The notes below the pieces were generated by a model, which was not told where the DNA came from, ran no database searches, and was given only the letters and a program-made list of their open reading frames with translations. From Escherichia coli (lineage in GTDB: Bacteria; Pseudomonadota; Gammaproteobacteria; Enterobacterales; Enterobacteriaceae), in assembly GCF_044647545.1 (NCBI RefSeq), contig NZ_CP172818.1: a stretch of DNA of 64,000 nt. The stretch is one strand, 5' to 3'. Made by a program: the position numbers and the translations under genes. Below, in pieces: positions 1-26,845 of this stretch. Numbering within the stretch: the first letter of the stretch is position 1; each line of letters begins with the position of its first letter.

Positions 1-88
1 GCGCTTCATCCTTAAACTGCAACACGTCGATGGTCGCCAGCGCTGAGCCGGAGATCATCAGCATCAGCACGCCCAATAAAAACCTCAT
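1..88 (-). CDS. ccmH: Cytochrome c maturation protein CcmH, 5' end only (start codon at 86-88, rest lies beyond window start)
   Basis: Minus-strand translation from 88 gives MRFLLGVLMLMISGSALATIDVLQFKDEA, matching the CcmH N-terminus; start overlaps ccmG stop (ATGA). Confidence 0.85.
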   Translation of the reverse strand, partial: MRFLLGVLMLMISGSALATIDVLQFKDEA

Positions 89-642
89 TGTGCGGCCTCC
101 TTACTGTATTTCTCCCACAGCGGCTTGATCTCTTCTTCCCAGACGCGAGGATTGAGATCGCCCGCATGGCGATAGCGAATGATGCCGTTGCCGTCGATGA
201 GGAACGTTTCTGGCGCGCCATAGACACCGAGATCCAGCCCTAACATGCCATCGCCATCAAACAGGCTTAGCGCGTAAGGATTGCCCAGCTCTTTCAGCCA
301 GCTGATTGCCTTCTGGCGATCGTCTTTATAGTTCATGCCGACCACGCGAATGCCCTGCGCAGAAAGCTGATTCAGATATTGATGTTCCGCACGGCAGGTC
401 GGACACCAGGTCGCCCAGACGTTAAGCAGCACAGGTTTGCCCTGAGTCAGCACATCCGCCTGATAAAACTGCCCCGGATTGTCCAGTGATTCGAGGCGAA
501 ACTTCGGCACTGGCTTGCCAATGAGCGCCGATTCCAGATTGGTCGGATCATCCCCTTCGGCATTACGCGCCAGCTGCCACAGTAGCGCCGCGGCAATCGC
601 CAGGAAGATAATCAACGGAATTAACAATACTTTGCGCTTCAT
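85..642 (-). CDS. ccmG: Thiol:disulfide interchange protein CcmG/DsbE (periplasmic thioredoxin-like, WCPTC motif)
   Basis: 185-aa ORF with CPTC active site; position in ccm operon. Confidence 0.95.
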   Translation of the reverse strand: MKRKVLLIPLIIFLAIAAALLWQLARNAEGDDPTNLESALIGKPVPKFRLESLDNPGQFYQADVLTQGKPVLLNVWATWCPTCRAEHQYLNQLSAQGIRVVGMNYKDDRQKAISWLKELGNPYALSLFDGDGMLGLDLGVYGAPETFLIDGNGIIRYRHAGDLNPRVWEEEIKPLWEKYSKEAAQ

Positions 643-2582
643 ACAGCCTCCGGCGCAGTTTTTTGCGGACTCACGCGCTTACGATAGCGAGGATCAAACA
701 GGCACAGCAGCCCGCCCAATGCCATCATCAGCCCGCCCGCCCAAATCCAGCGAACAAACGGTTTGTAGTAAAGACGCACGGCCCACGCGCCGTTTTCCAG
801 CTCTTCACCGAGCGCGGCGTACAGGTCACGCGTGATGCCGCCGTCAATCGCCGCTTCGGTCATCATCGACCCGGCAGTGTTGTAATAACGTTTTTCCGCA
901 TACAGCACCGTTTCCGGCTTGCCATCGCGCGTTACGCCGATAGTCGCCACACCGCCACGCCAGTTCGGGCCAGTCACCTCTTTGACATCACGGAAGGTGA
1001 AGCGATATTCATGAATATCGACACTATCGCCGGACTTCATGCGCACATCACGCTCAACGCTATAGTTCTGGCTAAAGGCAATACCAACAATTGTCACTGC
1101 CAGCCCCAGGTGAGCCGCCACCATTCCCCAATAACTGAAGGTGGTTTTCGTGCCGCGTGAAATACGCAGCGCAGCTTCCGCAATTGCCAGCACCGCAATC
1201 CAGCAGGCCATTGCCAGGCCGAGCACCGTCATCGCCACCACTTTGCTTTCGAACAGCCACGGCAACAGCAGCGACAGCACCAGCGTAGAGATGAAGGCGA
1301 TAATCAACAAATTGCGGATTTTACGTGGGCGATCGCGCCCCCAGCGCACCAGAGGACCGACACCAAGCAGCAGCGCAAACGGCACCATCAGCCAGGTAAA
1401 CATGGTGTTGAAGAACGGTTCGCCAATCGAAATACTGCCCAGTCCCAGTTGCTTGTGCACCAGCGGCAGCAGCGTCCCCAGCAACACCACCAGCATCGCG
1501 GCGACCAGCAAAACGTTGTTCGCTAACAACAGAGATTCCCGCGACCACAGCGCATTGTTTACGCGTGAGCGAACTTTGTGTCCACGCGCGGCAAACAGCA
1601 GCAGCGAACCACCAATCACCAGTACCATAAAGGCGAGGATAAACATACCGCGTGCCGGATCAGAGGCAAACGCGTGTACCGATACCAGCACGCCGGAACG
1701 CACCAGGAAAGTCCCCAGCAGACACAACGAGAAGGCACTGATTGCCAGCAGTAATGTCCACGCTTTGAAGCTGGCGCGTTGTTCAGTGACCGCCAGTGAG
1801 TGCATCAGCGCAGTCCCCACCAGCCACGGCATAAACGAGGCGTTTTCTACCGGATCCCAGAACCACCAGCCGCCCCAGCCGAGTTCGTAATAGGCCCATG
1901 CGGAACCGAGCACAATGCCGAGCGTCAAGAAGATCCACGCCGCCAGCGTCCACGGACGAGTAAAACGCGCATAAGTGCTGTCCAGACGCCCGCTCAACAA
2001 AGAAGCAATGGCAAAAGCAAACGCCACCGAGAAGCCGACGTACCCCATATAAAGCAGAGGCGGATGGAAGATCAGCCCCGGATCCTGTAACAGCGGGTTA
2101 AGATCGCGACCTTCAATCGGGAAGTTCGGCAACGTGCGTGAGAACGGGTTAGAGGTAAAGAGAATGAACAGCAAAAAGCCGACGCTGACCATCCCCATTA
2201 TCGCCAGTACGCGGGCCACAATATCCAGCGGAATACGCTGACTAAAAATCGCTACCGCAAAGGTCCAGCCGCTCATCAGCAGCACCCACAGCAGGAGCGA
2301 GCCTTCATGCGCGCCCCAGGTAGCCGCCACGCGATACCACACCGGAAGCTGGGTATTGGAGTTGCTGGCAACATAGGTGACGGTGAAGTCGTTGACCACG
2401 AAGGCATTGACCAGTACCAGAAATGCGCCAGCCACAGACATAAACAGCAGCCAGGCAAACAAGCGGGAAGACGCCATCATGCGCGCATCTCCGCGCGCTA
2501 CGCCCCATAGCGGATACACGGACAGCAGCAGCGCAATTCCTAGCGCCAGACACAGCAGCCCGTTACCAATTTCCGGCATCAT
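639..2582 (-). CDS. ccmF: Cytochrome c-type biogenesis heme lyase subunit CcmF
   Basis: 647-aa polytopic membrane ORF; stop/start overlaps with ccmG and ccmE. Confidence 0.95.
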
Positions 2583-3058
2583 GATGCTGGGTCCTTATAA
2601 ACACTCGCCGGGCGACGGTGATTGGCTTCCATCGCTTTCTCAACTTCTGGTGGCGTGTAGTTTTCGTCGTGTTTCGCCAGCACTTCTTTCGCGAGGATAT
2701 GATTGCCTTTTTCCAGTTCGCCCTGCACCACAACGCCCTGCCCTTCACGGAACAGATCCGGCAAAATGCCTTCGTAAGAGACATCTACTGAACCTTCAGC
2801 GTCGTAAATGGTGAAAGTTACTTTTAGCGAATTGGGATCGCGCTGCACACTACCCGGCATCACCATCCCGCCAACGCGCAGACGCTGACCGACTTCCGGC
2901 ATTTGCTGAGTTTCACGCTTGCCGTAGAGAATTTCCCCCGGCGTATAAAAGAGATCGATATTCGAGCGCAGCGCATATAGCACCAGACCGATAGTCAGCG
3001 CCAGCCCCGCCAAAACGGCACAGGCAATCCACAAGCGGTTTTTACGGCGAATATTCAT
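2579..3058 (-). CDS. ccmE: Heme chaperone CcmE
   Basis: 159-aa ORF, N-terminal membrane anchor, operon context. Confidence 0.95.
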
Positions 3059-3264
3059 GCAGCCTCCTGCTGTTGCGCAGCACGTAAACGCGCCTCACGC
3101 GCCCGCTGTTGCGCCACGCCACGCAGAATTGCGCGATGCTGCATCACCGAGTGCACGACCAAAACCACCAGAGGAATGACGGTCATCACCACCGCCAGCC
3201 AGACAAAAAAGGCGTAACCGCCCATTGCGAAAAATTCATTCCAGGAAGCAAATGCAGGGGTCAT
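3055..3264 (-). CDS. ccmD: Heme exporter small subunit CcmD
   Basis: 69-aa ORF overlapping ccmE start and ccmC stop. Confidence 0.9.
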
Positions 3265-3998
3265 TTACGGCCTCTTTTCAGTATCAGTTCACTCACCCAC
3301 GGACGGCGTTTTTCCATCAGCAAAATCAAATTACGCATCCGCATCAGCGTCAGCGTGGCAGACAGGAGCAGGAAGCCAAAAATCGACCAGCGCAGCGGCG
3401 AACGCATCGCCGGATCGATACTTTGCTGCATCCGCGTTGATCCCTGATGCAGGGTGTTCCACCACTCCACGGAGTAATGAATAATCGGCAGATTCACCAC
3501 GCCAATCAGCACCAGAATACCTGCAGCACGGCCCGCCAGACGGCGGTCGTCGAAGGCGTGCCACAGGGCAATGACACCAACATACAAAAACAGCAGCACC
3601 AGTTCAGAAGTCAGACGTGCATCCCATACCCACCAGGTGCCCCACATCGGTTTTCCCCATGCAGAGCCGGTAACCAGGGCAATAAAGGTAAACACGGCAC
3701 CAATGGGGGCCATCGCCGCCACCGCCAGGTTGGCCATTTTCATCTGCCAGACAAGGCCAATAAACGCCGCCACCGCCATTGATGCATAAATGCCCATCGA
3801 CCAGATCGCCGCAGGCACATGCAGGTAGATAATGCGGTAGCTATTTCCCTGCTGATAATCAGCCGGAGCAAAGCCGAATCCCCAGATCCAGCCGACGGTA
3901 AGCACGACCACACTGGCAATTGCCAGCCACGGTATAAACCAGCCACAGATTTGATACAGCCGTGGTGGGATCGCCAGTTGATGCAGTGTTTTCCACAT
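3261..3998 (-). CDS. ccmC: Heme exporter protein CcmC
   Basis: ORF track extends to 4022 (TTG); conserved N-terminus MWKTLHQ starts at the ATG at 3998, giving 245 aa. Confidence 0.9.
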   Translation of the reverse strand: MWKTLHQLAIPPRLYQICGWFIPWLAIASVVVLTVGWIWGFGFAPADYQQGNSYRIIYLHVPAAIWSMGIYASMAVAAFIGLVWQMKMANLAVAAMAPIGAVFTFIALVTGSAWGKPMWGTWWVWDARLTSELVLLFLYVGVIALWHAFDDRRLAGRAAGILVLIGVVNLPIIHYSVEWWNTLHQGSTRMQQSIDPAMRSPLRWSIFGFLLLSATLTLMRMRNLILLMEKRRPWVSELILKRGRK

Positions 3999-4039
3999 AG
4001 TTTCGATACCAGACTCGAACAAAAATCAGTAATCCAGCG

Positions 4040-4702
4040 TTATTGAATGCTGATTCGTAACGCTGCCGCCGTCGCAAAAGGACTTAAAGTCGCGGTGCCT
4101 GCCAGCAACGCGCCTAAAATTGCCAGATACCCATCAACGGGCAAATGCATAGAAGCCGCGTCCATCGCGGCGGTGGCAAAGATGAGTAATGGGATAGTCA
4201 GCGGTAACACCAATATGCTGAGCAGCACACCACCGCGCTTAAGTCCCACTGTCAGCGCCACGCCCGGTGCACCGAGAAAGCCAAGCGTAGGGGTTCCCAG
4301 CAGCAGCGTCAGCGCCATCACTTGCCAGCCATAAACATCCATTCCCAGTAGCATTGCTACCAGGGGCGAAAGGATGAGTAACGGCAGACCGGTTACCATC
4401 CAGTGCGCCATCACCTTCGCCAGCACAACGGCGGGCAAGGGTAACGGCAACAACATCAATTGTTCAAGACTGCCGTCCTGCAAATCGTCACGGAACAATC
4501 GTTCCAGCGCCAGCAAGGATGAAAGCAGCGCAGCAACCCAGATAATGCCCGGTGCAATACGCGCCAGCAGTTGCGGCTCCGGACCGATACTGAGCGGAAA
4601 AAGGGTAATGACAATCAGGAAGAACCACAGCGGGTTGGCGATTTCGGCGCTATGGCGAAACGCTACGCGCAGCTCAAGACGGAAAATGCGCCAGAACATC
4701 AT
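4040..4702 (-). CDS. ccmB: Heme exporter permease CcmB
   Basis: 220-aa membrane ORF; overlaps ccmA stop. Confidence 0.95.
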
Positions 4703-5322
4703 GCGGCCCCCGTTTGCGTCAGTGAAATGCGGCGAATTTTACTTTCAGCAACGTTGAGCGGCTGGTGGGTAGTCAGAATCACAGTCCCCCCCTGCTCCGT
4801 ATGCTGCGCCATACGCTTGGTCAGACGATCGACGCCGTTAACGTCAATCGCGGTAAAAGGCTCGTCGAGTATCCATAACGTGGCACGGGTCAGCCACAGA
4901 CGCGCTAAAGCGACGCGGCGTTGTTGCCCGGCAGAAAGTTGATTTACCGGAATATCTTCGAATCCGGCAAGCCCAGCCTGCGCCAGGGCTTCCAGACATT
5001 GTGCGGTATCGCCATCGCGATGATAAAAGTGCAGATTTTCTAACGCCGTCAGCCGGGTTTTGATCCCCGGCTGATGGCCTATCCATAACAGGTTTTGATG
5101 GTAGCTGTCGCGTACCTGATGCAAGGGCTGCCCTTGCCAGAGAACGTCACCCGCATCAGGGCGAGACAACCCCGTCAGCAAACGGAGAAGCGTTGTCTTC
5201 CCCGCGCCGTTGCTACCGGTGATTTGTACCCACTCTCCTGCGTTCAGCGTAAATGACAAGCCACTAAATAAGGTTCGTTCATCCCGCTCGCAAAGTAACT
5301 CTCTGGCTTCAAGCATACCCAC
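4699..5322 (-). CDS. ccmA: Heme exporter ATP-binding protein CcmA (ABC ATPase, Walker A GSNGAGKT)
   Basis: 207-aa ORF with Walker A and LSAGQ signature; apparent GTG start. Confidence 0.93.
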
Positions 5323-5334
5323 GCAATAACCCTG

Positions 5335-5937
5335 TTAAAAACCTGGCTCGACTTCGCGCATATCGGGCAGCTTGTGCGCTATCCCTTTATGGCAATCAAT
5401 ACAGGTTTGCCCATCTTTCACCGCCTGGTCATGCATCTTCGCGGCAACTGATTTCTGGGCGGTTGTATCCATATACTCGAAGTTGTGACAGTTACGGCAC
5501 TCCTGCGAGTTATTGTCCTTCATGCGCCGCCACTCATTCTGTGCCATCGTCAGGCGATGAGCTTCAAATTTCTGCGGCGTGTCAATAACGCCAAAAATTT
5601 TACCATACAGCTCTTTACTTGCTTTGAGCTTGCGTATCATCTTCGGCACAAACTCGTGCGGAACGTGACAATCCGGACAGGTCGCACGAACGCCGCTACG
5701 GTTGTTGTAGTGCACGGAATCCATGTATTCCTGATACACCGTGTTACGCATTTCGTGGCAGCTAATGCAGAACTCTTCGGTATTGGCTTTTTCCATCCCG
5801 GTGTTAAAGCCGCCCCAGAAGACGATACCGCCGACAAAACCGATCAACAGCAGCGTCCCCAGCGCCAGACGGCTGGGGGTACGCCACCATTTCCACAGGC
5901 GCTTAATCAGACCAGGCTTACGGTCAGAATTTCCCAT
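5335..5937 (-). CDS. napC: Membrane-anchored tetraheme cytochrome c NapC
   Basis: 200-aa ORF with four CxxCH motifs. Confidence 0.95.
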   Translation of the reverse strand: MGNSDRKPGLIKRLWKWWRTPSRLALGTLLLIGFVGGIVFWGGFNTGMEKANTEEFCISCHEMRNTVYQEYMDSVHYNNRSGVRATCPDCHVPHEFVPKMIRKLKASKELYGKIFGVIDTPQKFEAHRLTMAQNEWRRMKDNNSQECRNCHNFEYMDTTAQKSVAAKMHDQAVKDGQTCIDCHKGIAHKLPDMREVEPGF

Positions 5938-5946
5938 AATAACCTC

Positions 5947-6396
5947 TTATTTCCCGTAACCTTTTGATGGGGTAAAGGTATTCCCCACGATTGGCGCGGT
6001 ATCGGCCTGCGGTACGTGACATTGCAGACAGAAATAACGACGCGGAGCCACTTCCGCGCCCACTTTGCCGTCGCTGTCCATAAAGTGAGTAGGACTAATG
6101 CGCGGCGCGCCAGTGGTGCGATAGCTTTCGACACCGTGGCACTGCAAGCAGCGGTTGGTATTGGTCGTTACCTGATAACCTTCAACGCTATGCGGGATCA
6201 TTGGCGGCTGATTCACATAGTTCAGCGGCATCCGATCCTGCTCTTTTGGCATCCGAATGGCCCCTTCCTGCGTCCCGGATACTTCCGGCGACTGGCTAAA
6301 ATCGACGCCATTAGCCGCCCAAACCGCGCCGCTTACCACCAGGGCCAGCATCGCCGTCCATTGACACAGCGCTTTCTTCAGGTCATGGCTTTTCAT
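5947..6396 (-). CDS. napB: Periplasmic nitrate reductase diheme cytochrome c subunit NapB
   Basis: ORF track starts at 6417; conserved start MKSHDL at 6396 overlaps napH stop (ATGA); two CxxCH motifs. Confidence 0.92.
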   Translation of the reverse strand: MKSHDLKKALCQWTAMLALVVSGAVWAANGVDFSQSPEVSGTQEGAIRMPKEQDRMPLNYVNQPPMIPHSVEGYQVTTNTNRCLQCHGVESYRTTGAPRISPTHFMDSDGKVGAEVAPRRYFCLQCHVPQADTAPIVGNTFTPSKGYGK

Positions 6397-7256
6397 GATT
6401 TCGCTCCCGAACTCCATCGTGTAGTTATTGTAAATACATCCTCAGAACAGACATCCACGCAGCGACCGCACGTCATGCAATCGCGGCTGGTGACCTGCAC
6501 CGGGCTTTGTTCATCCAGCACCGGGGCACGTAGCACATGCGGTTCCGGGCAAACATGAAAACAATCCATACAGCGGTTACATTTCTGCCGATCGTTGGCA
6601 GCAACGGTAATCACACCTTTGCTACCCAGCACGCCATACAGCGCGCCAACCGGACAAATGTGCCCGCACCAGCCGTGTTCAACGACCAGTAGATCAAATA
6701 AAAACAGCGCGAGAATAAGCAGCGCGCCGCTGCCGAATCCCATTACCAGACTGCGCCCCATCAGGGAAACGGGGTTGATCCATTCCCAGATGAGCGTGCC
6801 GGTTAAGGCCGATCCCACCAGAATGACCACCAACAACACGTAGCGAATGTGGCGTGGGATCGTCGCAGACTGATTGAGGTCAAAGCGCCTGCGTAACCAG
6901 TTCGCTAAGTCGGTAATCGGGTTCAGCGGGCAGACCCAGCTGCAAAATAATCGCTTTCCTGCCAGGGCGTAGAGCACGGTGATAATCACCGCACCAGTCA
7001 GCGCTACCGTGGCAGGCAGATGACCGCTGGCAAGGCTTTGCAGCGTCATCAGCGGATCGGTCAGCGGAACGGTGTCGAATAACAGGCTACTGCTGTAGTT
7101 GCCGTGCAAGATCCACACACCAAACCACGGACCGCTCAAAAACATCCCCAGCACGAAGAACTGACAAAGGCGACGTAACACTAACCAACGGTGACTGCGC
7201 CACCAGCCTTTTTTCTCCAGCGCCTCGCGCCCGGCGTCACGTTTACGATTTGCCAT
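6393..7256 (-). CDS. napH: Ferredoxin-type membrane protein NapH
   Basis: 287-aa ORF with TM segments and Cys clusters. Confidence 0.95.
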
Positions 7257-7938
7257 TGTTCCCCTCCAGCCAGCCGAAGCGGTAATGGTGACCTAACTCC
7301 CCTTTCGCTAGTGACAGCGGTAACACCTTGATTGCCGGTTGTTCCAGCACGCACACTTTTTCGCACTTACCGCAACCGGTACAGGCGTCGCTGTGAACCG
7401 TCGGCAGAAAGCGGGCGTGCTTACCGGTACGCGTGTTGCGCTCCAGCTCCAGGGTGATGGCCTCATCAATTTTCGGGCATTCGCGATAACAAACATCGCA
7501 GCGCAGCCCCTGAAAGTTGAGACAGTTTTCCTGGTCCACCAGCACCGCCAGCCCCATCCGCGCGTCGTCGATCGATTCGATCTCACGATCCAGCGCACCG
7601 CTCGGGCACACTTTGGCGCACGGAATGTCCTCACACATTTCGCAAGGAATATCCCGCGCAACAAAATATGGCGTGCCCGCCGACAGGCCTGAGGCCAGCG
7701 TCGCCAGTTTTAAGGTGTCGTAAGGGCAAGCCTGAACACACTGACCGCAACGCACACAGGCACTGGCAAAGGCGTTCTCGTTTATGGCTCCGGGCGGGCG
7801 CAACCGCACGCCAGATGCGCGTGCGGTTTGCTGTTGTAACCCCAGCGCCACACCCACGGCAGCCAGCCCGCCTGCTGTGCGAACAACATCGCGCAGAAAG
7901 CGGCGGCGACCATTTTGAGGTTTCGCTGACCGGGACAT
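7243..7938 (-). CDS. napG: Ferredoxin-type protein NapG (Tat signal, 4Fe-4S clusters)
   Basis: 231-aa ORF with RRRFLR twin-arginine motif and multiple CxxCxxC motifs. Confidence 0.95.
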
Positions 7939-7944
7939 AATGGC

Positions 7945-10431
7945 TTACACCTTCTCCAGTTTGACCGCGCACTTCTTGAAGTCCGTCTCTTTCGAGAGCG
8001 GATCGGTCGCGTCCAGCGTCAGTTTGTTAACCAGCTGTGCGGCATCGAAGAACGGCATGTACACCAGGCCCTGTGGCGGACGGTTACGACCGCGCGTTTC
8101 GACAATCGAGATCACTTCGCCACGGCGAGAAACTACTTTCACTTTGTCGCCACGGCGCAGATCGCGCGCTTTCGCATCCAGCGGGTGAATAAACAGAACC
8201 GCTTCCGGGAAGGCACGGTGCAGTTCCGGCACACGGCGAGTCATACTGCCGGTGTGCCAGTGCTCCAGGACGCGTCCGGTAGAGAGCCACAGGTCGTACT
8301 CTTCATCCGGTGCTTCCGCCGCCGGTTCGAACGGCAGCGCGAAGATCACCGCTTTACCATCCGGTTTACCGTAGAACTTATAGCCTTCGCCCGCTTTCAC
8401 GTACGGGTCGTTACCTTCGCTGTAACGCCACTGCGTTTCTTTACCGTTCACCACCGGCCAGCGCAGACCGCGCGCTTTGTGGTAGTCATCGAACGGTGCC
8501 AGATCGTGACCGTGACCGCGACCAAACCATGCGTATTCTTCGAACAGCCCTTTTTGCAGATAGAAGCCCAGCTCGCGGGATTCATCGTTCAGCTGATCTT
8601 CCGCCAGTTCGGATACCGGGAATTTGCTCACTTCCGGGGTGGCATACAGAACTTCGTACAGCGTTTTGCCACGCAGTTCCGGTTTCTTCGCCAGCAGCTC
8701 TTCCGGCCATACTTCTTCAGTTTTAAAGCGGCGGGAGAACTGGACTAACTGCCAGAGATCCGATTTCGCTTCGCCCGGTGCCTGTACCTGCTGACGCCAG
8801 AACTGAGTACGGCGTTCGGCGTTACCGTAAGCGCCCTCTTTCTCTACCCACATTGCGGTCGGCAGGATCAAGTCGGCGGCCAGCGCACTGACTGTCGGAT
8901 ACGGATCGGAAACGATGATGAAGTTGCGCGGATCGCGCCAGCCCGGCATACGCTCTTCATTAATGTTCGGTCCGGCCTGCATGTTATTGGTACACATGGT
9001 CCAGTAAACATTCAGTTTGCCGTCTTTCAGCGCACGGTCTTGTGCCACCGCGTGCAGACCGATTTTCGCCGGAATGGTGCCACTCGGGATATTCCACTTC
9101 TTCTCGCAAATATCACGATGTTTCTCGTTAGTCACCACCATGTCCGCAGGCAGACGGTGAGCAAAGGTGCCCACTTCACGCGCAGTACCACACGCGGAAG
9201 GCTGCCCGGTCAGGGAGAACGGACCGCAACCCGGCTGGGAAATTTTGCCGGTCAGCAGGTGCAGGTTGTAGACCAGGTTGTTGGCCCACACGCCACGAGT
9301 ATGCTGGTTGAAGCCCATCGTCCAGTAGGAGATGACTTTCTTGTTCGGATCGGCATACAGCTGCGCCAGTTGTTCTAACTGGTCTTTCGGCACGCCGGTC
9401 ATTTCGGCAGTTTTTTCCAGCGTATACTCAGCAACGAAGGCTTTGTAATCTTCAAAGCTCATCGGTTCGGAGGCGTCAGAACCTGGATTCTTCGCTGCTT
9501 TTTCCAGTGGATGGGTCGGACGTAAACCGTAGCCGATGTCCGTCGCCCCTTTGCGCAGGTTAACGTGTTTGCTAAAGAAGTCCTGATTTATCGCATTGTT
9601 TTGAATGATATAGTTGGCGATGTAGTTCAGAATCACCAGGTCTGATTGCGGCGTAAAGATGATGCCGTTATCCGCCAGCTCGAAGCTACGATGCTGGTAG
9701 GTAGAAAGCACCGCCACGGTAACGTTCTGGTTAGAGAGACGACGGTTAGTGATGCGCGACCAGAGGATCGGGTGCATCTCCGCCATGTTTGCGCCCCACA
9801 GCACAAACGCGTCAGCCTGCTCGATGTCGTCATAGCAGCCCATCGGCTCATCCATACCAAAGGTACGCATAAAGCCAACTACTGCCGACGCCATACAGTG
9901 ACGCGCGTTCGGGTCGATGTTGTTCGAACGGAAGCCCGCTTTAAACAGCTTGGACGCGGCATAACCTTCCCAGATAGTCCACTGACCAGAACCGAACATA
10001 CCGATCGATTCCGGCCCTTTTTCTTTCAGGGCGGTTTTGAATTTCTCTTCCATCACATCGAAGGCTTGATCCCAGGTGATTGGGGTAAATTCGCCTTCTT
10101 TGTCATATTTACCGTTTTTCATACGCAGCAGCGGCTGCGTCAAACGGTCTTTACCGTACATGATTTTGGGCAGGAAATAGCCCTTAATGCAGTTCAGGCC
10201 ACGGTTAACCGGTGCATCCGGGTCGCCCTGACAGGCCACCACACGCCCCTGCTGCGTTCCGACCAGAACGCCGCAACCAGTACCGCAGAAACGGCACGGC
10301 GCTTTATCCCATTTAATGGCTTCCTGCTGACCAACAACGGCGCGGGCAACGCCCGGCACGCTGAGACCGGCAGCCGCCGCAGCGGCCGCAACGGCGTTAG
10401 CTTTCATAAAGCTACGACGACTGAGTTTCAT
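7945..10431 (-). CDS. napA: Periplasmic nitrate reductase catalytic subunit NapA (molybdopterin)
   Basis: 828-aa ORF with Tat signal (SRRSFMK) and N-terminal Cys cluster. Confidence 0.97.
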
Positions 10432-10691
10432 GGTGTTTCCTCACCTTGCTCTTCCTGCTGGTGATAAACCAGCGACACCGCCAGCACGCCCTCTACGTTG
10501 CGTACTGACTCAATGGTTTGAATCAGCGTTTCGCTGTCTTCTGCTTCCACCACCACAATCAACTGACCGCTCGGCGCGTCGCTGACAGCAACTTCACAGC
10601 CGGGAAAGGCGTTCAGTTGGGTGCTGATGTCTGAAATTCGTTCGCTTTTGGCCTGCACGACCAGACTGCAAACTTGCCAGTTAGTGTGCAT
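10428..10691 (-). CDS. napD: NapA chaperone NapD
   Basis: 87-aa ORF overlapping napA start and napF stop. Confidence 0.93.
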
Positions 10692-11175
10692 GGAGATACT
10701 CCGCAGTTATGGCTGATACCGGACAGCTGGCTGCACATGCTCCACATCCGTTGCAAAGTTGGCTATTAAGTTGCGGCTGGTAGATCCCGGAGAGCGTCGG
10801 GCGAAAGATAATTGCCATTGGCTCACAGCTATCCTGACAGCGGCGGCATTCAACTGACTGATACGCCAGGCACGCGTCCCCAATGGTGAACTGCAAATCC
10901 CAGGCCCTGGTGTGGCGCGGAGAAAATAGCGATTCGGGGCAAGCCTGCGCGCAGGCGTAACAGAAGCTGCACTCGTTATTTTTGAAATTAACGCTCGGAT
11001 AGCCACCCGCGCCGCGTTGCAGAATGTTGTTTTCACAAGCATTAATACAGGCGTCGCAGCGGGTGCAATGGGTCAGAAAATGAGATTCATCACCGGACCA
11101 GGGCGGACGGATACCGTTACTGGCTTTGCGCCAGCGACCAGTGAGTATGCCCCGACGGGATGCATCAATCTTCAC
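10681..11175 (-). CDS. napF: Ferredoxin-type protein NapF
   Basis: 164-aa ORF with several 4Fe-4S Cys motifs; GTG start. Confidence 0.93.
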   Translation of the reverse strand: MKIDASRRGILTGRWRKASNGIRPPWSGDESHFLTHCTRCDACINACENNILQRGAGGYPSVNFKNNECSFCYACAQACPESLFSPRHTRAWDLQFTIGDACLAYQSVECRRCQDSCEPMAIIFRPTLSGIYQPQLNSQLCNGCGACAASCPVSAITAEYLHAH

Positions 11176-11288
11176 ATTGACCTTCCATCATTAACGCGCT
11201 CTGAAAATTGAGAGCGACCAAATAAACCGCATAATTAATAAGCCATTTTTATAGCCGCTAAGATATTAAAGGATGTGTCAAAGATGCA

Positions 11289-11304
11289 TACCCCGATCGG
11301 GGTA
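11289..11304 (-). promoter_or_regulatory. NarP/NarL 7-2-7 heptamer pair in the napF promoter (TACCCCGATCGGGGTA)
   Basis: Perfect 16-bp palindrome about 115 bp upstream of the napF start; matches the known nap promoter NarP site. Confidence 0.75.
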
Positions 11305-11582
11305 AAACCTGTAGCAGGATCAAAAGAGTGGCGGGAAGCGTGGCAAAAACGGGCTTTTGCTCACATTTCAAATGGTTATAAACATATTTATATAGCGATT
11401 AATTCGCCAGAGATATTTCTGCTGGTTTGTTTTCTCATCAGAATTTAACACTAAAAGAGCAGGTAAAATTATCTGAATGTTCTTTAAGTTATTCATAAAG
11501 CAAATTAATAAATCTGATGAATATGTTAACCTTCAGCGACATCATCGGTGAAAACCTATAAATGAAGAAGGAAAGCAAAAAA

Positions 11583-12071
11583 ATGAAGACCATTCTACCT
11601 GCAGTATTGTTTGCCGCTTTCGCCACCACTTCCGCCTGGGCGGCAGAAAGCGTCCAGCCGCTGGAAAAAATCGCACCTTATCCACAAGCTGAAAAAGGCA
11701 TGAAGCGTCAGGTGATTCAGTTAACTCCGCAAGAAGATGAATCTACCCTGAAAGTAGAACTGTTAATCGGTCAGACGCTGGAAGTCGATTGCAATTTGCA
11801 TCGTCTCGGCGGGAAGCTGGAAAGCAAAACGCTGGAAGGCTGGGGCTATGATTATTATGTCTTTGATAAAGTTAGCTCGCCGGTTTCCACGATGATGGCC
11901 TGCCCGGATGGCAAGAAAGAGAAGAAATTTGTCACCGCGTATCTGGGCGATGCCGGAATGCTGCGTTATAACAGCAAGCTGCCGATCGTGGTGTATACGC
12001 CAGACAATGTGGATGTGAAGTACCGCATCTGGAAGGCGGAAGAGAAAATTGACAACGCGGTTGTTCGCTAA
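11583..12071 (+). CDS. eco: Ecotin, periplasmic serine protease inhibitor
   Basis: ORF track starts at 11562; conserved start MKTILPAV at 11583 with signal peptide. Confidence 0.93.
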
Positions 12072-12199: not shown

Positions 12200-13858
<1,659 letters not shown>

Positions 13859-20015: not shown

Positions 20016-20166
20016 AGGGAACTTTTTAAGATTATTGCGGAATGGCGAAATAAGCACCTAACATCAAGCAATAATAATTCAAGGTTAAAATCAATAACTT
20101 ATTCTTAAGTATTTGACAGCACTGAATGTCAAAACAAAACCTTCACTCGCAACTAGAATATCTCCC

Positions 20167-20259
20167 GCTATCATCATTAACTTTATTTATTACCGTCATT
20201 CATTTCTGAATGTCTGTTTACCCCTATTTCAACCGGATGCCTCGCATCCGGTTTTTTTT
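20167..20259 (+). ncRNA. micF: MicF small regulatory RNA (antisense regulator of ompF)
   Basis: GCTATCATCATTAACTTTATTTATTACCGTCATTCATTTCTGAATGTCTG... ending in terminator hairpin CCGGATGCCTCGCATCCGG plus T8; divergent from ompC. Confidence 0.9.
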
Positions 20260-23914: not shown

Positions 23915-23995
23915 CTGTAGGCCAGATAAGACGCGTTAGTGTCTTATCTGGCATTTGCACTGAATGCCAGATGCGGTGTAAACGCCTTATCCGTC
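23915..23995. repeat. REP-like palindromic elements between convergent rcsB and rcsC
   Basis: GTAGGCCAGATAAGACGCG / GTCTTATCTGGC / GCCTTATCCG motifs. Confidence 0.65.
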
Positions 23996-26845
23996 CTACG
24001 AATCCCGCGATTTCCTGACCCTCTCGGCATATACCGTTAGCGTCTGTTTTATCACATCCAGCGTTACCGGCTTCGACAGGCAGCTGTCCATACCGGACTC
24101 CAGACACCGCTGCTTCTCTTCAGCCAACGCATTAGCAGTTACTCCGATTACCGGCAACGTCAGTCCCAACTGACGAATGCGTTGCGTCAAGCGGTAACCA
24201 TCCATATTTGGCATGTTGACGTCGCTAAGCACGATATCAATATGATTCTTGCTAAGTACATTAAGCGCATCGACGCCATCATTCGCGGTTTTACATTGAT
24301 AACCCAACGATCCCAACTGATCTGCCAGAAGACGCCGGTTAATCGGATGATCATCCACGACCAGAATCATCATATCATCGTTATCGCTGACCGCTTTGTC
24401 CGTCGACGGCAGAGCGTTAGCAGGATCGTCGCTCTCCATCTCGATCAAATAAATACGCGCCAACAATGCCGGTAGCTCATGCGGGGCAGCCACACTGTGT
24501 ACCCACTCCCCTGGCGCTTTCTCCAGCGGAATACCAATATGGCGACGACAGAAGGTCACTACCGCTCTACCCTGCCATTTTTTACTCACTACCTCGTCAG
24601 TAATTAACACATCTTCGGGAGTCGGTTCCTGCCCTTCGTATGTTGTAACGACGATGCCGCTGCGCTGCAAACTGGTTTCCAGGAACTGACAGAGCGACGC
24701 ATTGCGGACCGCCAGCCAGCAGCGTTTACCACTCAACCCTTCCACGCCTTTTTTCTGCGGGTACTGAGCGCCGTACAACGGAATACGCACGGTAAACTGG
24801 CTGCCCATTCCCGGTTCTGAATCTACCGAGATGTCGCCGTCCATCATGCTGATCAGTTTTTCACAAATCGCCAGACCCAGACCGGTCCCCTGGAAGTTTC
24901 GCTGTACGCCCGTTCCGACCTGGAAGAAGGGATCAAACAAGCGCACGACTTCTTTCGCCGGAATCCCCACGCCGGTATCGCGAACACGGATAGAGAGATA
25001 ATCGCCATCAGCGCGAACTTGCAAAACTATACAGCCGGTATCGGTGAATTTTATGGCGTTACTCAACAGGTTGGAGATGACCTGCTGTAAACGCATCGGG
25101 TCGCCATTTAAGGCCACTGGCACATCCGGTTCAATAAAGCAGTACAAGCCTAACTGCTTGCGTACCACCAGCGGTAAATAGTTGGCGGTGATGTGGTTCA
25201 TCACTTCACGCGGTGAAAACTCACGCGGTTCGATCTTCAACTGTTCTGATTCAATTTTCGAGAAATCGAGAATATCGCTGATAATTTTCAACAACAGGCT
25301 GGAAGAGTTGTTCATTGCCGTCACCAGACGATCGACGCCTTTCGGTAACTCTTTGGTTTGCAACAGATCCAGGTTACCGATAATGCCATACAGCGGCGTT
25401 CGCAGCTCATGACTGACGGTGGCAAGGAACATCGATTTTGACTGGCTCGCCTGTTCCGCTGCTTGTGCCATCTCCTGCAACGACTCTTCCATCTTCACGC
25501 GCGAAGAAACATCCACCAGCACACAAATGGCCACGTTTTCATTACGATAGCGCGAATGGACGAAGCTGATTTGCAGATTGGTATTGTTGCTGGTCAGGAC
25601 ATCAACAAAATTGACCTGCTGCCCACAGATAATTTGTGTCAGCCGTTGGCGATCCTCATGCGTAAGCATATTGAGATAGGTATGCGCCAGTTCGTTACTT
25701 AAAATATTGACGCCATCAGCGGTACGCAAAATGCAGATACCCACTGGCGCGGAGGCGACAATCTTGCGATTAAACTGCTCATGTTCTTCCAGTCGCAGGG
25801 CGTCGCTTTCCGCCGGAATGAAAATACGTCGCTCGTACATCCGCGCGAGAGTAAACAATGCAGCTCCGGCAAGCACATTCAGCAAAATTGCGTTAAGGAT
25901 CAACATGCGAATGCGTTCCAGTACCTTATCAACCGGCACCGAATACACGATGCTTAGCGATGAGGGTGGCAGATTTTTCTTCAGCACCAGCTCCCGGAAC
26001 CCTTCCGTATAGCCAAACCAGGAGCGTTCCTGCATCCAGCGAGGATCGCCCTTAATTTTGCTTTCTGGTCCGGTAAGCGAAATCAGGGTATGACCATTTT
26101 CATCAAGAATGGTAACCCCCATCGGCAACGTACCAGGCAAGAAAAAGTTCTCCATCCGGATGGTCTGCTCGACACCCAAAAGCGCCTGCAACCGGTTCGC
26201 CAGATAAACTGGCGTCAAGGCGTAAAAATACCCGACGCCAGGGCGCGGACCTTCGCTGATCCAGTAGAGGTTACTGCCGCTATCATCTTGTGGTGCATTT
26301 CGATATTTATTGATGCGTTCATGCAACGCTTTCAACGCGGTATCGCGTTCCACTGGCATATCACGCAGACCGAAATTGGCCATGCAGAGGTTATCGCTGC
26401 CGATTAAAAATACCCGGTTGAGATCGTAAGCCGCAGAAAAATTATCGCGCCAGTAGCGCATAAACCACGCCAATGACTCCAGAGAACCTCGCCAGGTGTT
26501 ACTCATTGCGGAACAATCGGAGTCGGCAAACAGCGGTTCAAACGCAGGCACATCCGCCTGCGTTTCTCGTCCACGCGGGGAAAGCACACCGTTTTCTGCC
26601 GATAAGCGATTTTCAGCTATGTACTTCAGCTCTTTCATCACATCAGAGGTGCGTTGAATAAAGCGCTGAGCCTGATCAGAACTCAGATTAAATTCCTGAC
26701 GAATTTCCGATTCTCGCTGATGCAACGCATTAACGATGTAAAAAACGGATGAAAAAGCAATCAACAGCCAGAGCACTAACGCCAATGCTCTGAACATGTA
26801 GCGCGAGGCTTTCAGGGTTGTACGAAAAGAAGCAAGGTATTTCAA
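23996..26845 (-). CDS. rcsC: Hybrid sensor histidine kinase RcsC
   Basis: 949-aa ORF with HisKA/HATPase and C-terminal receiver domain; apparent TTG start. Confidence 0.93.
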   Translation of the reverse strand: MKYLASFRTTLKASRYMFRALALVLWLLIAFSSVFYIVNALHQRESEIRQEFNLSSDQAQRFIQRTSDVMKELKYIAENRLSAENGVLSPRGRETQADVPAFEPLFADSDCSAMSNTWRGSLESLAWFMRYWRDNFSAAYDLNRVFLIGSDNLCMANFGLRDMPVERDTALKALHERINKYRNAPQDDSGSNLYWISEGPRPGVGYFYALTPVYLANRLQALLGVEQTIRMENFFLPGTLPMGVTILDENGHTLISLTGPESKIKGDPRWMQERSWFGYTEGFRELVLKKNLPPSSLSIVYSVPVDKVLERIRMLILNAILLNVLAGAALFTLARMYERRIFIPAESDALRLEEHEQFNRKIVASAPVGICILRTADGVNILSNELAHTYLNMLTHEDRQRLTQIICGQQVNFVDVLTSNNTNLQISFVHSRYRNENVAICVLVDVSSRVKMEESLQEMAQAAEQASQSKSMFLATVSHELRTPLYGIIGNLDLLQTKELPKGVDRLVTAMNNSSSLLLKIISDILDFSKIESEQLKIEPREFSPREVMNHITANYLPLVVRKQLGLYCFIEPDVPVALNGDPMRLQQVISNLLSNAIKFTDTGCIVLQVRADGDYLSIRVRDTGVGIPAKEVVRLFDPFFQVGTGVQRNFQGTGLGLAICEKLISMMDGDISVDSEPGMGSQFTVRIPLYGAQYPQKKGVEGLSGKRCWLAVRNASLCQFLETSLQRSGIVVTTYEGQEPTPEDVLITDEVVSKKWQGRAVVTFCRRHIGIPLEKAPGEWVHSVAAPHELPALLARIYLIEMESDDPANALPSTDKAVSDNDDMMILVVDDHPINRRLLADQLGSLGYQCKTANDGVDALNVLSKNHIDIVLSDVNMPNMDGYRLTQRIRQLGLTLPVIGVTANALAEEKQRCLESGMDSCLSKPVTLDVIKQTLTVYAERVRKSRDS

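What the first reader, a model, noticed from the sequence alone, without database searches (positions are those of the whole stretch)
11289..11304. Perfect 16-bp palindrome TACCCCGATCGGGGTA in the napF control region
A perfect 7-2-7 heptamer inverted repeat of the NarL/NarP type lies about 115 bp upstream of napF. An adjacent TTGAT half-site near 11316 could be the partner FNR site, but it is non-consensus in my reading. This fits nitrate/nitrite and anaerobic control of the nap-ccm transcript that runs through to ccmH.
Basis: partly seen in the sequence, partly recalled or inferred. Interest (0 to 1): 0.25.

Follow-up and report, generated by a model that had tools for sequence, protein, structure and literature searches.

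The report
Known NarP/NarL site of napF promoter
The 16-base palindrome is the long-known docking site where the nitrate-sensing regulators NarP and NarL control the E. coli periplasmic nitrate reductase operon, next to the known FNR oxygen-sensor site, so the finding is correct but ordinary.

Summary
TACCCCGATCGGGGTA lies at 11289-11304, with its centre 121.5 bp upstream of the napF start codon (napF is on the minus strand, 10681-11175). The window is E. coli chromosome, and from the FNR site to napF it is base-for-base identical to K-12 MG1655.

Curated K-12 binding-site tables (supplement of PMC2718512) list exactly these sequences for b2208 (napF):
- The two NarL heptamers TACCCCG/CGGGGTA, marked as a 7-2-7 pair.
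- The FNR site TTGATCCTGCTACA (window 11310-11323), whose centre is 20 bp upstream of the palindrome centre.

Published positions (heptamers at -40 and -49, PMC4549865) put the palindrome at -44.5. By inference FNR is then at -64.5 and the start of transcription at window 11252.

Conservation supports function:
- The 63-bp NarP+FNR segment is unchanged in 4930 of 5421 E. coli genomes, against 1259 for a control segment in the same intergenic region.
- Across Escherichia, Citrobacter and Leclercia, 13 of 16 palindrome bases are invariant. Only heptamer positions 5 (C or T) and 7 vary.

Neither palindromy nor a NarL weight-matrix score exceeds chance in 64 kb, so identity, position and footprint carry the case. 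The overlapping yojO reading frame and a hairpin do not explain the conservation.

The parts
11289..11304 (.). NarP/NarL 7-2-7 binding site TACCCCG-AT-CGGGGTA. The centre is 11296.5, which is -44.5 relative to the inferred napF P1 start. The promoter-distal heptamer is 11298-11304 and the promoter-proximal heptamer is 11289-11295.
   Evidence: Sequence. Identical to the curated b2208 NarL sites. Published position -40/-49. 13 of 16 bases invariant across three genera.
11310..11323 (-). FNR site TTGATCCTGCTACA, read in the napF direction. The centre is 11316.5, 20 bp upstream of the NarP/NarL site centre, which puts it at -64.5 by inference. The left half is consensus and the right half is degenerate.
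   Evidence: The curated b2208 FNR site is found exactly. The TTGAT half is invariant in 5 of 5 columns and the spacing has no indels in 8 sequences. An FNR ChIP-seq peak lies upstream of napF.
11259..11278 (-). Core promoter block ACACATCCTTTAATATCTTA (about -26 to -7). It holds the overlapping -10-like hexamers TAATAT and TATCTT. It is the most conserved stretch of the whole control region.
   Evidence: 14 of 16 invariant columns in the best 16-column windows. The hexamers were assigned by inspection from the inferred +1. No consensus sigma-70 promoter was called on this strand, as expected for an activator-dependent promoter.
11252..11252 (-). Inferred napF P1 transcription start (an A on the minus strand), giving a 77-nt leader.
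   Evidence: Inference only. It rests on the published heptamer positions -40/-49, the fact that the region contains only one 7-2-7 site, and identity to K-12. It was not mapped here.
11375..11397 (-). Probable ModE operator CGCTATATAAATATGTTTATAAC, centred about -134. The window carries G at 11383 where K-12 has A.
   Evidence: Conserved as TCG.TATATAA...TATATAAC in Escherichia and Citrobacter and absent in Leclercia. ModE activation of nap is stated in PMC8139620. The position of about -133.5 is from my memory of McNicholas and Gunsalus 2002, which is not held in the library.
1..11175 (-). The regulated unit, on the minus strand:
- napF 10681-11175
- napD 10428-10691
- napA 7945-10431
- napG 7243-7938
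- napH 6393-7256
- napB 5947-6417
- napC 5335-5937
- ccmA 4699-5322
- ccmB 4040-4702
- ccmC 3261-4022
- ccmD 3055-3264
- ccmE 2579-3058
- ccmF 639-2582
- ccmG/dsbE 85-642
- ccmH, first 29 codons, 1-88
   Evidence: ORF list and NCBIfam equivalog hits above cut-off. ccmD is assigned by position and length only.
11284..11448 (+). The yojO reading frame (54 codons), annotated in K-12, running opposite to napF across the NarP/NarL and FNR sites. Probably not a constrained gene.
   Evidence: Annotated as yojO or 'hypothetical protein'. No NCBIfam family. The frame is cut to 15-20 codons in a divergent E. coli, E. albertii, Citrobacter and Leclercia, and the start codon is lost in C. werkmanii.

Best explanation
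The palindrome is the common NarP/NarL operator of the E. coli napF (periplasmic nitrate reductase / cytochrome c maturation) promoter.

Mechanism. Without oxygen, an FNR dimer occupies the weak site centred about 64.5 bp upstream of the transcription start. That alone gives little transcription. With nitrate or nitrite, phosphorylated NarP binds as a dimer, one subunit per TACCCCG heptamer, to the 7-2-7 site centred at -44.5, next to the -35 region. Together with FNR it recruits RNA polymerase. Phosphorylated NarL, which predominates at high nitrate, binds the same palindrome but activates poorly. It displaces NarP and lowers expression, so nap is expressed best at low nitrate.

Taken from the literature: that binding occurs and how the regulation behaves.

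Inferred: the exact +1 (window 11252) and the -10 hexamers.
For: Identity with K-12 and with curated sites:
- The window equals K-12 MG1655 at every base from napF up to about -130.
- The curated NarL and FNR site strings for b2208 are found exactly at 11284-11309 and 11305-11328.

Literature:
- A 7-2-7 site at -40/-49 of napF (PMC4549865).
- napF is one of four genes with a reported 7-2-7 site, and NarP binds only such sites (PMC2718512).
- FNR and NarP-P induce, and NarL-P prevents NarP-P binding (PMC9262595).
- FNR-dependent transcription needs NarP co-activation, and a ChIP-seq peak lies at 2301675 (PMC3688515). With napF at 2303497 in NC_000913.3 and the roughly 1978-bp offset between genome versions (my knowledge), the FNR site centre falls about 15 bp from that peak.
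- The outer six bases of each arm (TACCCC/GGGGTA) equal those of the engineered high-affinity site TACCCCTAAAGGGGTA that was co-crystallised with NarL.

Conservation:
- The 63-bp NarP+FNR segment is identical in 4930 of 5421 E. coli genomes, against 1259 for a control segment 120 bp away.
- The common variant (O157:H7) is TACCTCG, still inside TACYYMT.
- The most divergent strain keeps the palindrome and TTGAT amid many flanking changes.
- Across 8 sequences from 3 genera, 13 of 16 palindrome columns are invariant, against 38% overall and 21% upstream of FNR. Variation is confined to heptamer positions 5 and 7, and the spacing is fixed.
- Fnr and NarP sites were predicted upstream of nap in ten other gamma-proteobacterial genomes (PMC1805755).
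Against: Nothing found here contradicts it. There are four caveats:
- The primary footprinting and in vitro transcription papers (Darwin and Stewart 1995; Darwin et al. 1998; Stewart et al. 2003) are not held in the library. Binding is therefore cited second-hand, through curated tables and later papers.
- Each heptamer departs from TACYYMT at position 7 (G instead of T). Each scores 5.5 bits, slightly below the median curated heptamer at 6.0.
- Motif score and palindromy do not exceed chance in 64 kb.
- The right half of the FNR site is poor (2 of 5).
Confidence: 0.96

Rival explanations
1. The palindrome is conserved because it is part of the coding sequence of the small protein YojO, read on the + strand (codons 2-7, H-T-P-I-G-V), and not because it is an operator.
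For: yojO is annotated over it in K-12 and in many RefSeq genomes. The ORF is intact at 54 codons in the window, K-12 and O157.
Against: The frame stops after 15-20 codons in a divergent E. coli (MFDS1006657), in the SCPM lineage, and in E. albertii, all four Citrobacter and Leclercia. The start codon is GAG in C. werkmanii. Conservation ends where the FNR site ends, at 21% invariant beyond it, although that part would still be yojO. The common O157 variant is non-synonymous in this frame (G to E). No protein family matches. No CDS is annotated there in MFDS1006657.
Confidence: 0.01
2. The palindrome acts as a nucleic-acid hairpin, either a transcription terminator or RNA element on one of the strands, or a DNA cruciform.
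For: It can form a 6-bp G+C stem with a GAUC loop, at about -10 kcal/mol and z about -2.2 to -2.6 on either strand.
Against: Any G+C-rich palindrome folds this way. There is no T-run after it and the terminator scan does not call it. No Rfam family overlaps it. It lies upstream of the napF start, so it is not in the nap mRNA. The position-5 C-to-T change occurs on one arm only in O157, E. albertii and Leclercia, with no compensating change. The symmetric position-7 change in two Citrobacter falls in the loop of this fold.
Confidence: 0.01
3. It is a chance palindrome with no function.
For: Perfect 16-bp palindromes (2 against 1.4 expected) and 7-2-7 repeats (3 against 4.7 expected) are as frequent as chance. 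The weight-matrix score is within the shuffle range.
Against: It is identical to the curated, experimentally derived sites. It sits at a fixed 20-bp distance from an FNR site that has a ChIP-seq peak. It is selectively conserved within E. coli and across three genera.
Confidence: 0.01
4. In Escherichia the central GATC makes the operator sensitive to Dam methylation, or protein binding protects it from Dam. This would add an epigenetic layer to NarP/NarL competition.
For: GATC lies exactly at the dyad (11295-11298). It is kept in every Escherichia sequence examined and in C. werkmanii.
Against: The centre reads AATT, GATT or CATT in three Citrobacter and in Leclercia, with the rest of the site intact, so GATC is not required. 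No paper in the library links Dam to this site. Position 7 and the spacer are the least constrained part of the motif.
Confidence: 0.03

Closest known systems
E. coli K-12 napF (aeg-46.5) operon control region: NarP/NarL 7-2-7 site at -44.5 with the FNR site at -64.5 (Darwin and Stewart 1995; Darwin et al. 1998; Stewart et al. 2003; curated in RegulonDB)
   Same: It is the same locus. The sequence is identical from napF to about -130, and the curated NarL and FNR site strings are found exactly.
   Different: Nothing differs in the sites themselves. This strain differs from K-12 only further upstream, by 8 substitutions in the intergenic region, one of them inside the probable ModE operator at 11383.
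Other 7-2-7 NarL/NarP sites (nirB, nrfA, fdnG, yeaR) and the engineered narG -89/-89 site TACCCCTAAAGGGGTA that was crystallised with the NarL output domain
   Same: Inverted TACYYMT heptamers with a 2-bp spacer. The outer six bases of each arm are identical to the engineered high-affinity site.
   Different: The napF site has G rather than T at heptamer position 7, giving a central CGATCG. It lies at -44.5 (next to the -35 region, downstream of FNR), whereas at nirB and nrfA the site lies upstream of FNR (my knowledge). At napF, NarL acts mainly as an antagonist of NarP.
   Same: The same TTGAT...TACC.C.AT.GGGGTA architecture with fixed spacing in the enterobacterial loci. Fnr and NarP sites are predicted upstream of nap in all ten genomes of PMC1805755.
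   Different: Position 5 is T in E. albertii, O157 and Leclercia. Position 7 and the centre vary (AATT, GATT, CATT), so the palindrome is not always perfect and the GATC is not always present.

Membership tests
NarL/NarP 7-2-7 operator | Two heptamers resembling TACYYMT in inverted orientation | tested here: met
   TACCCCG on each arm matches 6 of 7 positions (position 7 is G, not T). Each arm scores 5.5 bits on a matrix of 70 curated heptamers with napF left out, where the curated median is 6.0.
NarL/NarP 7-2-7 operator | Exactly 2 bp between the heptamers | tested here: met
   The spacer is AT at 11296-11297. The spacing is invariant in 8 orthologous promoters.
NarL/NarP 7-2-7 operator | Located in the control region of a nitrate/nitrite-regulated operon at a position from which it can act | tested here: met
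   Its centre is 121.5 bp upstream of the napF start codon and 20 bp downstream of the FNR site. The published position is -40/-49. The sequence is identical to K-12.
NarL/NarP 7-2-7 operator | Bound by phospho-NarP and phospho-NarL, and mutations abolish nitrate/nitrite control | not testable with these tools
   Known only from the literature: the curated site tables and statements in PMC9262595, PMC2718512 and PMC4549865. The primary papers are not held.
NarL/NarP 7-2-7 operator | Motif score stands out from the genomic background | tested here: not met
   It ranks 4th of about 64,000 positions at 11.0 bits, while the shuffle maxima average 12.4. This reflects the low information content of the motif. 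It is not a defining feature of membership, but it shows the site could not have been called from sequence statistics alone.
FNR (CRP/FNR family) site TTGAT-N4-ATCAA | Match to the consensus inverted repeat | tested here: inconclusive
   TTGAT matches 5 of 5 and CTACA matches 2 of 5. It is nevertheless the curated FNR site for b2208.
FNR (CRP/FNR family) site TTGAT-N4-ATCAA | Occupied by FNR in vivo | not testable with these tools
   A published ChIP-seq peak at 2301675 is assigned to napF. It lies about 15 bp from the site after coordinate conversion (plus my knowledge of the version offset).
FNR (CRP/FNR family) site TTGAT-N4-ATCAA | Conserved with fixed phasing to the co-activator site | tested here: met
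   TTGAT is invariant. In the other half C, A and C are invariant. There are no indels between the FNR and NarP sites in 8 sequences.
Intrinsic terminator / structured RNA | Stable hairpin followed by a T-run, or a match to an RNA family | tested here: not met
   A hairpin is possible, but there is no T-run, the terminator scan does not call it, and there is no Rfam hit.
Protein-coding constraint (yojO) | An intact, conserved reading frame in related species | tested here: not met
   The frame is truncated to 15-20 codons outside the main E. coli clade.

The most novel reading that the evidence does not exclude
The most novel reading not excluded concerns the Dam site (GATC) at the exact dyad of the operator in the genus Escherichia. 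Methylation there could modulate the NarP-versus-NarL competition, or NarP/NarL occupancy could protect the site from methylation. Lineage variants such as the O157:H7 and E. albertii TACCTCG arm might then retune the nitrate dose-response of nap. Neither has been reported in the library searched.
Probability: 0.04. Interest if true: 0.3.

Novelty: already known. Interest (0 to 1): 0.05.

Why it matters
This site is a textbook case of two homologous response regulators competing for one operator to set a dose-response to nitrate. It lets E. coli use the periplasmic reductase when nitrate is scarce, which is relevant in the gut and urinary tract. Confirming it here adds no new biology. It does show three things: the first-stage reader identified a real regulatory site from sequence alone, the site is essentially fixed across 5,400 E. 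coli genomes and neighbouring genera, and the annotated yojO gene lying over it is probably not a real constrained gene.

Tried and rejected
- Primary papers. I tried PMC107417, PMC193976, PMC135098, PMC3034140, PMC2632075 and PMC1251606. None is held, so binding is cited through curated tables and later papers.
- Full-text searches for '44.5', for '64.5', and for the 16-mer itself found nothing useful.
- The repeat finder did not report the palindrome under my settings, where the minimum arm length of 10 exceeded the 7-8 base arms. Direct counting replaced it.
- The statistical route (palindrome counts, degenerate consensus, weight matrix) does not lift the site above chance. I rejected it as a basis for the call.
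- The sigma-70 consensus scan finds no napF-strand promoter. This is consistent with activator dependence, but it means the -10 hexamers and +1 are inferred.
More distant taxa are covered only through PMC1805755.
- No supplement with the napF fusion endpoints was available to fix +1 independently.
- The rivals (yojO coding constraint, hairpin or terminator, chance) were tested and rejected.
- The Dam-methylation idea found no literature support and is weakened by loss of GATC in Citrobacter and Leclercia.

Full report
**1. Observation**

The sequence at window 11289-11304 is TACCCCGATCGGGGTA, a perfect 16-bp palindrome made of two 7-base arms and a 2-base spacer.

The flanking genes are as follows:
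- Minus strand: napF (10681-11175; TIGR00402, 248 bits against a cut-off of 102), then napD (10428-10691) and napA (7945-10431).
- Plus strand: ecotin (11562-12071).
- Minus strand beyond that: mqo (12200-13846).

The palindrome's near edge is 114 bp upstream of the napF start codon, and its centre is 121.5 bp upstream.

It starts the 14-mer TTGATCCTGCTACA (11310-11323, centre 11316.5), exactly 20 bp upstream of the palindrome centre (11296.5).

**2. Is it more than chance?**

By sequence statistics alone it is not.
- The exact 16-mer is unique.
- The window has 2 perfect 16-bp palindromes against 1.4 expected in shuffles, and 3 perfect 7-2-7 inverted repeats against 4.7 expected.
- The degenerate consensus with up to 2 mismatches gives 3 hits against 2.2 expected.
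- A weight matrix built from 70 curated NarL heptamers, leaving napF out, scores the site at 11.0 bits. That is rank 4 in the window and below the mean maximum of shuffled sequences, 12.4.

The case therefore has to rest on identity, position and conservation.

**3. Identity**

The window is E. coli chromosome. The 541-bp query around the site is found in 5,421 of 5,426 complete genomes and is 100% identical to several strains, such as SK1144. Compared with K-12 MG1655, the napF-eco intergenic region differs at 8 positions. All of them are distal, and from about -130 down to napF the two are identical. Published K-12 data therefore apply directly.

The supplement of PMC2718512 reproduces the curated (RegulonDB/CoryneRegNet) sites for b2208, which is napF:
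- NarL sites GGTTTTACCCCGATCGG and CCGATCGGGGTATGCAT, flagged as 7-2-7 pair 4a/4b.
- FNR site CTCTTTTGATCCTGCTACAGGTTT with core TGTAGCAGGATCAA.

All three strings occur exactly in the window, at 11293-11309, 11284-11300 and 11305-11328.

**4. Position and mechanism (from the literature)**

- PMC4549865 places the napF 7-2-7 site at heptamer positions -40 and -49, i.e. centred at -44.5.
- PMC2718512 says 7-2-7 sites have been reported for fdnG, napF, nirB and nrfA. It also says NarP binds only such sites as a homodimer, while NarL binds them with high affinity.
- PMC9262595 summarises the regulation. FNR and phospho-NarP induce. Phospho-NarL binding prevents phospho-NarP binding. Expression is therefore highest at low nitrate.
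- PMC3688515 states that FNR-dependent napF transcription needs NarP co-activation, and reports an FNR ChIP-seq peak centred at 2301675 assigned to napF.

On the ChIP-seq peak: napF starts at 2303497 in NC_000913.3. The offset between the two MG1655 sequence versions is about 1978 bp (my knowledge). With those, the FNR site centre falls about 15 bp from the peak. Read as version-3 coordinates, the peak would lie inside napA, which contradicts the paper's own assignment.

On the inferred promoter: there is only one 7-2-7 site in the region, so -44.5 fixes the inferred P1 start at window 11252 (an A on the minus strand). That puts FNR at -64.5, gives a 77-nt leader, and places the overlapping -10-like hexamers TAATAT and TATCTT at about -16 to -8. 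These last points are inference. My recollection of Stewart et al. 2003, which described two overlapping promoters 3 bp apart, agrees but could not be checked. No consensus sigma-70 promoter is called on this strand, as expected for an activator-dependent promoter.

**5. Conservation (tested here)**

Within E. coli:
- A 63-bp segment spanning both sites (11275-11337) is identical in 4,930 of 5,421 genomes.
- A control 63-bp segment 120 bp further upstream in the same intergenic region is identical in only 1,259. In most genomes it is too divergent for megablast to seed.

Of four variant genomes examined:
- Two (O157:H7 F8798 and strain 472) carry TACCTCG in the distal arm, a C-to-T change at heptamer position 5 that stays within TACYYMT.
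- One has a change outside both sites.
- The most divergent (MFDS1006657) keeps the palindrome and TTGAT perfectly while many flanking bases differ.

Across species, an unbiased fetch of napF loci returned seven true orthologues: a second Escherichia lineage, E. albertii, four Citrobacter and Leclercia. In the alignment of 260 bp upstream of napF:

| Region | Invariant columns |
|---|---|
| Palindrome | 13 of 16 |
| Whole alignment | 38% |
| Leader | 42% |
| Upstream of the FNR site | 21% |

Further points from the same alignment:
- Only heptamer positions 5 (C or T) and 7 (G, A or C) vary, which are the positions the consensus leaves loosest.
- TTGAT is invariant.
- There is no indel between the two sites.
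- Two Citrobacter have TACCCCAATTGGGGTA, which is again a perfect palindrome.

PMC1805755 predicted Fnr and NarP sites upstream of nap in ten genomes of Yersinia, Pasteurellaceae and Vibrionaceae.

**6. Rivals**

(a) yojO. K-12 annotation places a 54-codon gene on the opposite strand (11284-11448), so the palindrome would encode H-T-P-I-G-V. The evidence against coding constraint is:
- The frame is cut to 15-20 codons in every sequence outside the main E. coli clade, and the start codon is lost in C. werkmanii.
- Conservation stops where the FNR site stops.
- The O157 variant is non-synonymous in this frame.
- No protein family matches.

Coding constraint does not explain the footprint.

(b) Hairpin. 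The palindrome can fold at about -10 kcal/mol with z about -2.4, as any G+C palindrome would. There is no T-run, no terminator call, no Rfam family and no compensatory change in the stem.

(c) Chance. This is excluded by sections 3 to 5.

(d) Dam. A GATC lies at the dyad (11295-11298), but it is replaced by AATT, GATT or CATT in three Citrobacter and Leclercia, and nothing in the library links Dam to this site.

**7. The regulated unit**

On the minus strand, napFDAGHBC, ccmABCDEFG and the first 29 codons of ccmH follow one another with overlaps or gaps of a few bases, from 11175 down to position 1. Terminator-like hairpins are no more frequent than chance. Transcript structure was not tested, and only the start of ccmH is in the window.

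**8. Verdict**

The feature is the well-characterised, database-curated NarP/NarL operator of the napF promoter, together with its FNR partner. Novelty: already known. Interest is low. The only unexplored angles are minor and improbable: a possible influence of Dam methylation at the dyad, and possible functional consequences of the O157 and E. albertii arm variant.

Noticed in passing
window 11284-11448 (+): The annotated small gene yojO (54 codons; 'YojO' or 'hypothetical protein' in RefSeq) lies antisense over the NarP/NarL and FNR sites. Its frame is truncated to 15-20 codons in a divergent E. coli, E. albertii, Citrobacter and Leclercia, and C. werkmanii lacks the start codon. It looks like an unconstrained ORF that exists because of the promoter sequence.
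   Followed up: yes
window 11375-11397 (-), SNP at 11383: A probable ModE operator (CGCTATATAAATATGTTTATAAC, centred about -134) is conserved in Escherichia and Citrobacter but not in Leclercia. This strain (and strain PM06121) has G at 11383 where K-12, O157 and strain 472 have A.
   Followed up: partly
window 11259-11278 (-): The most conserved block of the whole control region is ACACATCCTTTAATATCTTA (about -26 to -7), which is more conserved than the palindrome itself. It covers the overlapping -10 hexamers. It might also hold another regulator's site (IscR represses nap according to PMC8139620), but that was not tested.
   Followed up: partly
window 11295-11298: A Dam site (GATC, within CGATCG) lies exactly at the dyad of the operator. 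It is present in all Escherichia sequences seen and in C. werkmanii, and absent in three Citrobacter and in Leclercia.
   Followed up: partly
L003 / L006 (O157:H7 F8798, strain 472), equivalent to window 11300: A lineage variant of the operator, TACCTCGATCGGGGTA, makes it an imperfect palindrome. The same T occurs in E. albertii and Leclercia. About 490 of 5,421 genomes have one to three differences in the 63-bp segment. Only four were inspected, and two of those carry this change.
   Followed up: partly
window 11214-11230 (-): A terminator-like stem-loop (GCGGTTTATTTGGTCGC followed by TCTCAATTTT) lies in the napF leader, about +23 to +39. The total number of such calls equals chance. PMC8139620 mentions an ArcZ sRNA-napF mRNA interaction detected by RIL-seq, but the site of that interaction was not examined.
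   Followed up: no
window 11208-11235 (+): A promoter-like TTGAGA-16-CATAAT lies on the + strand inside the napF leader, pointing towards yojO and eco. Another (TTAACA-16-AATTAT) lies at 11445-11472 upstream of eco. The number of such calls equals chance.
   Followed up: no
window 1003-1020: The only longer perfect palindrome in the window, CGATATTCATGAATATCG (18 bp), lies inside ccmF.
   Followed up: no
window 20072-20111; 20166-20259; 23920-23996: Two of the best 7-2-7 weight-matrix hits (TAATAATTCAAGGTTA and AACTTATTCTTAAGTA) lie 24 bp apart in the A+T-rich ompC-micF intergenic region and are probably chance hits. Rfam finds MicF at 20166-20259 (+) and naRNA4 at 23920-23996 (-).
   Followed up: partly
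loci L007-L027: No Salmonella napF locus was among the hits.
   Followed up: no
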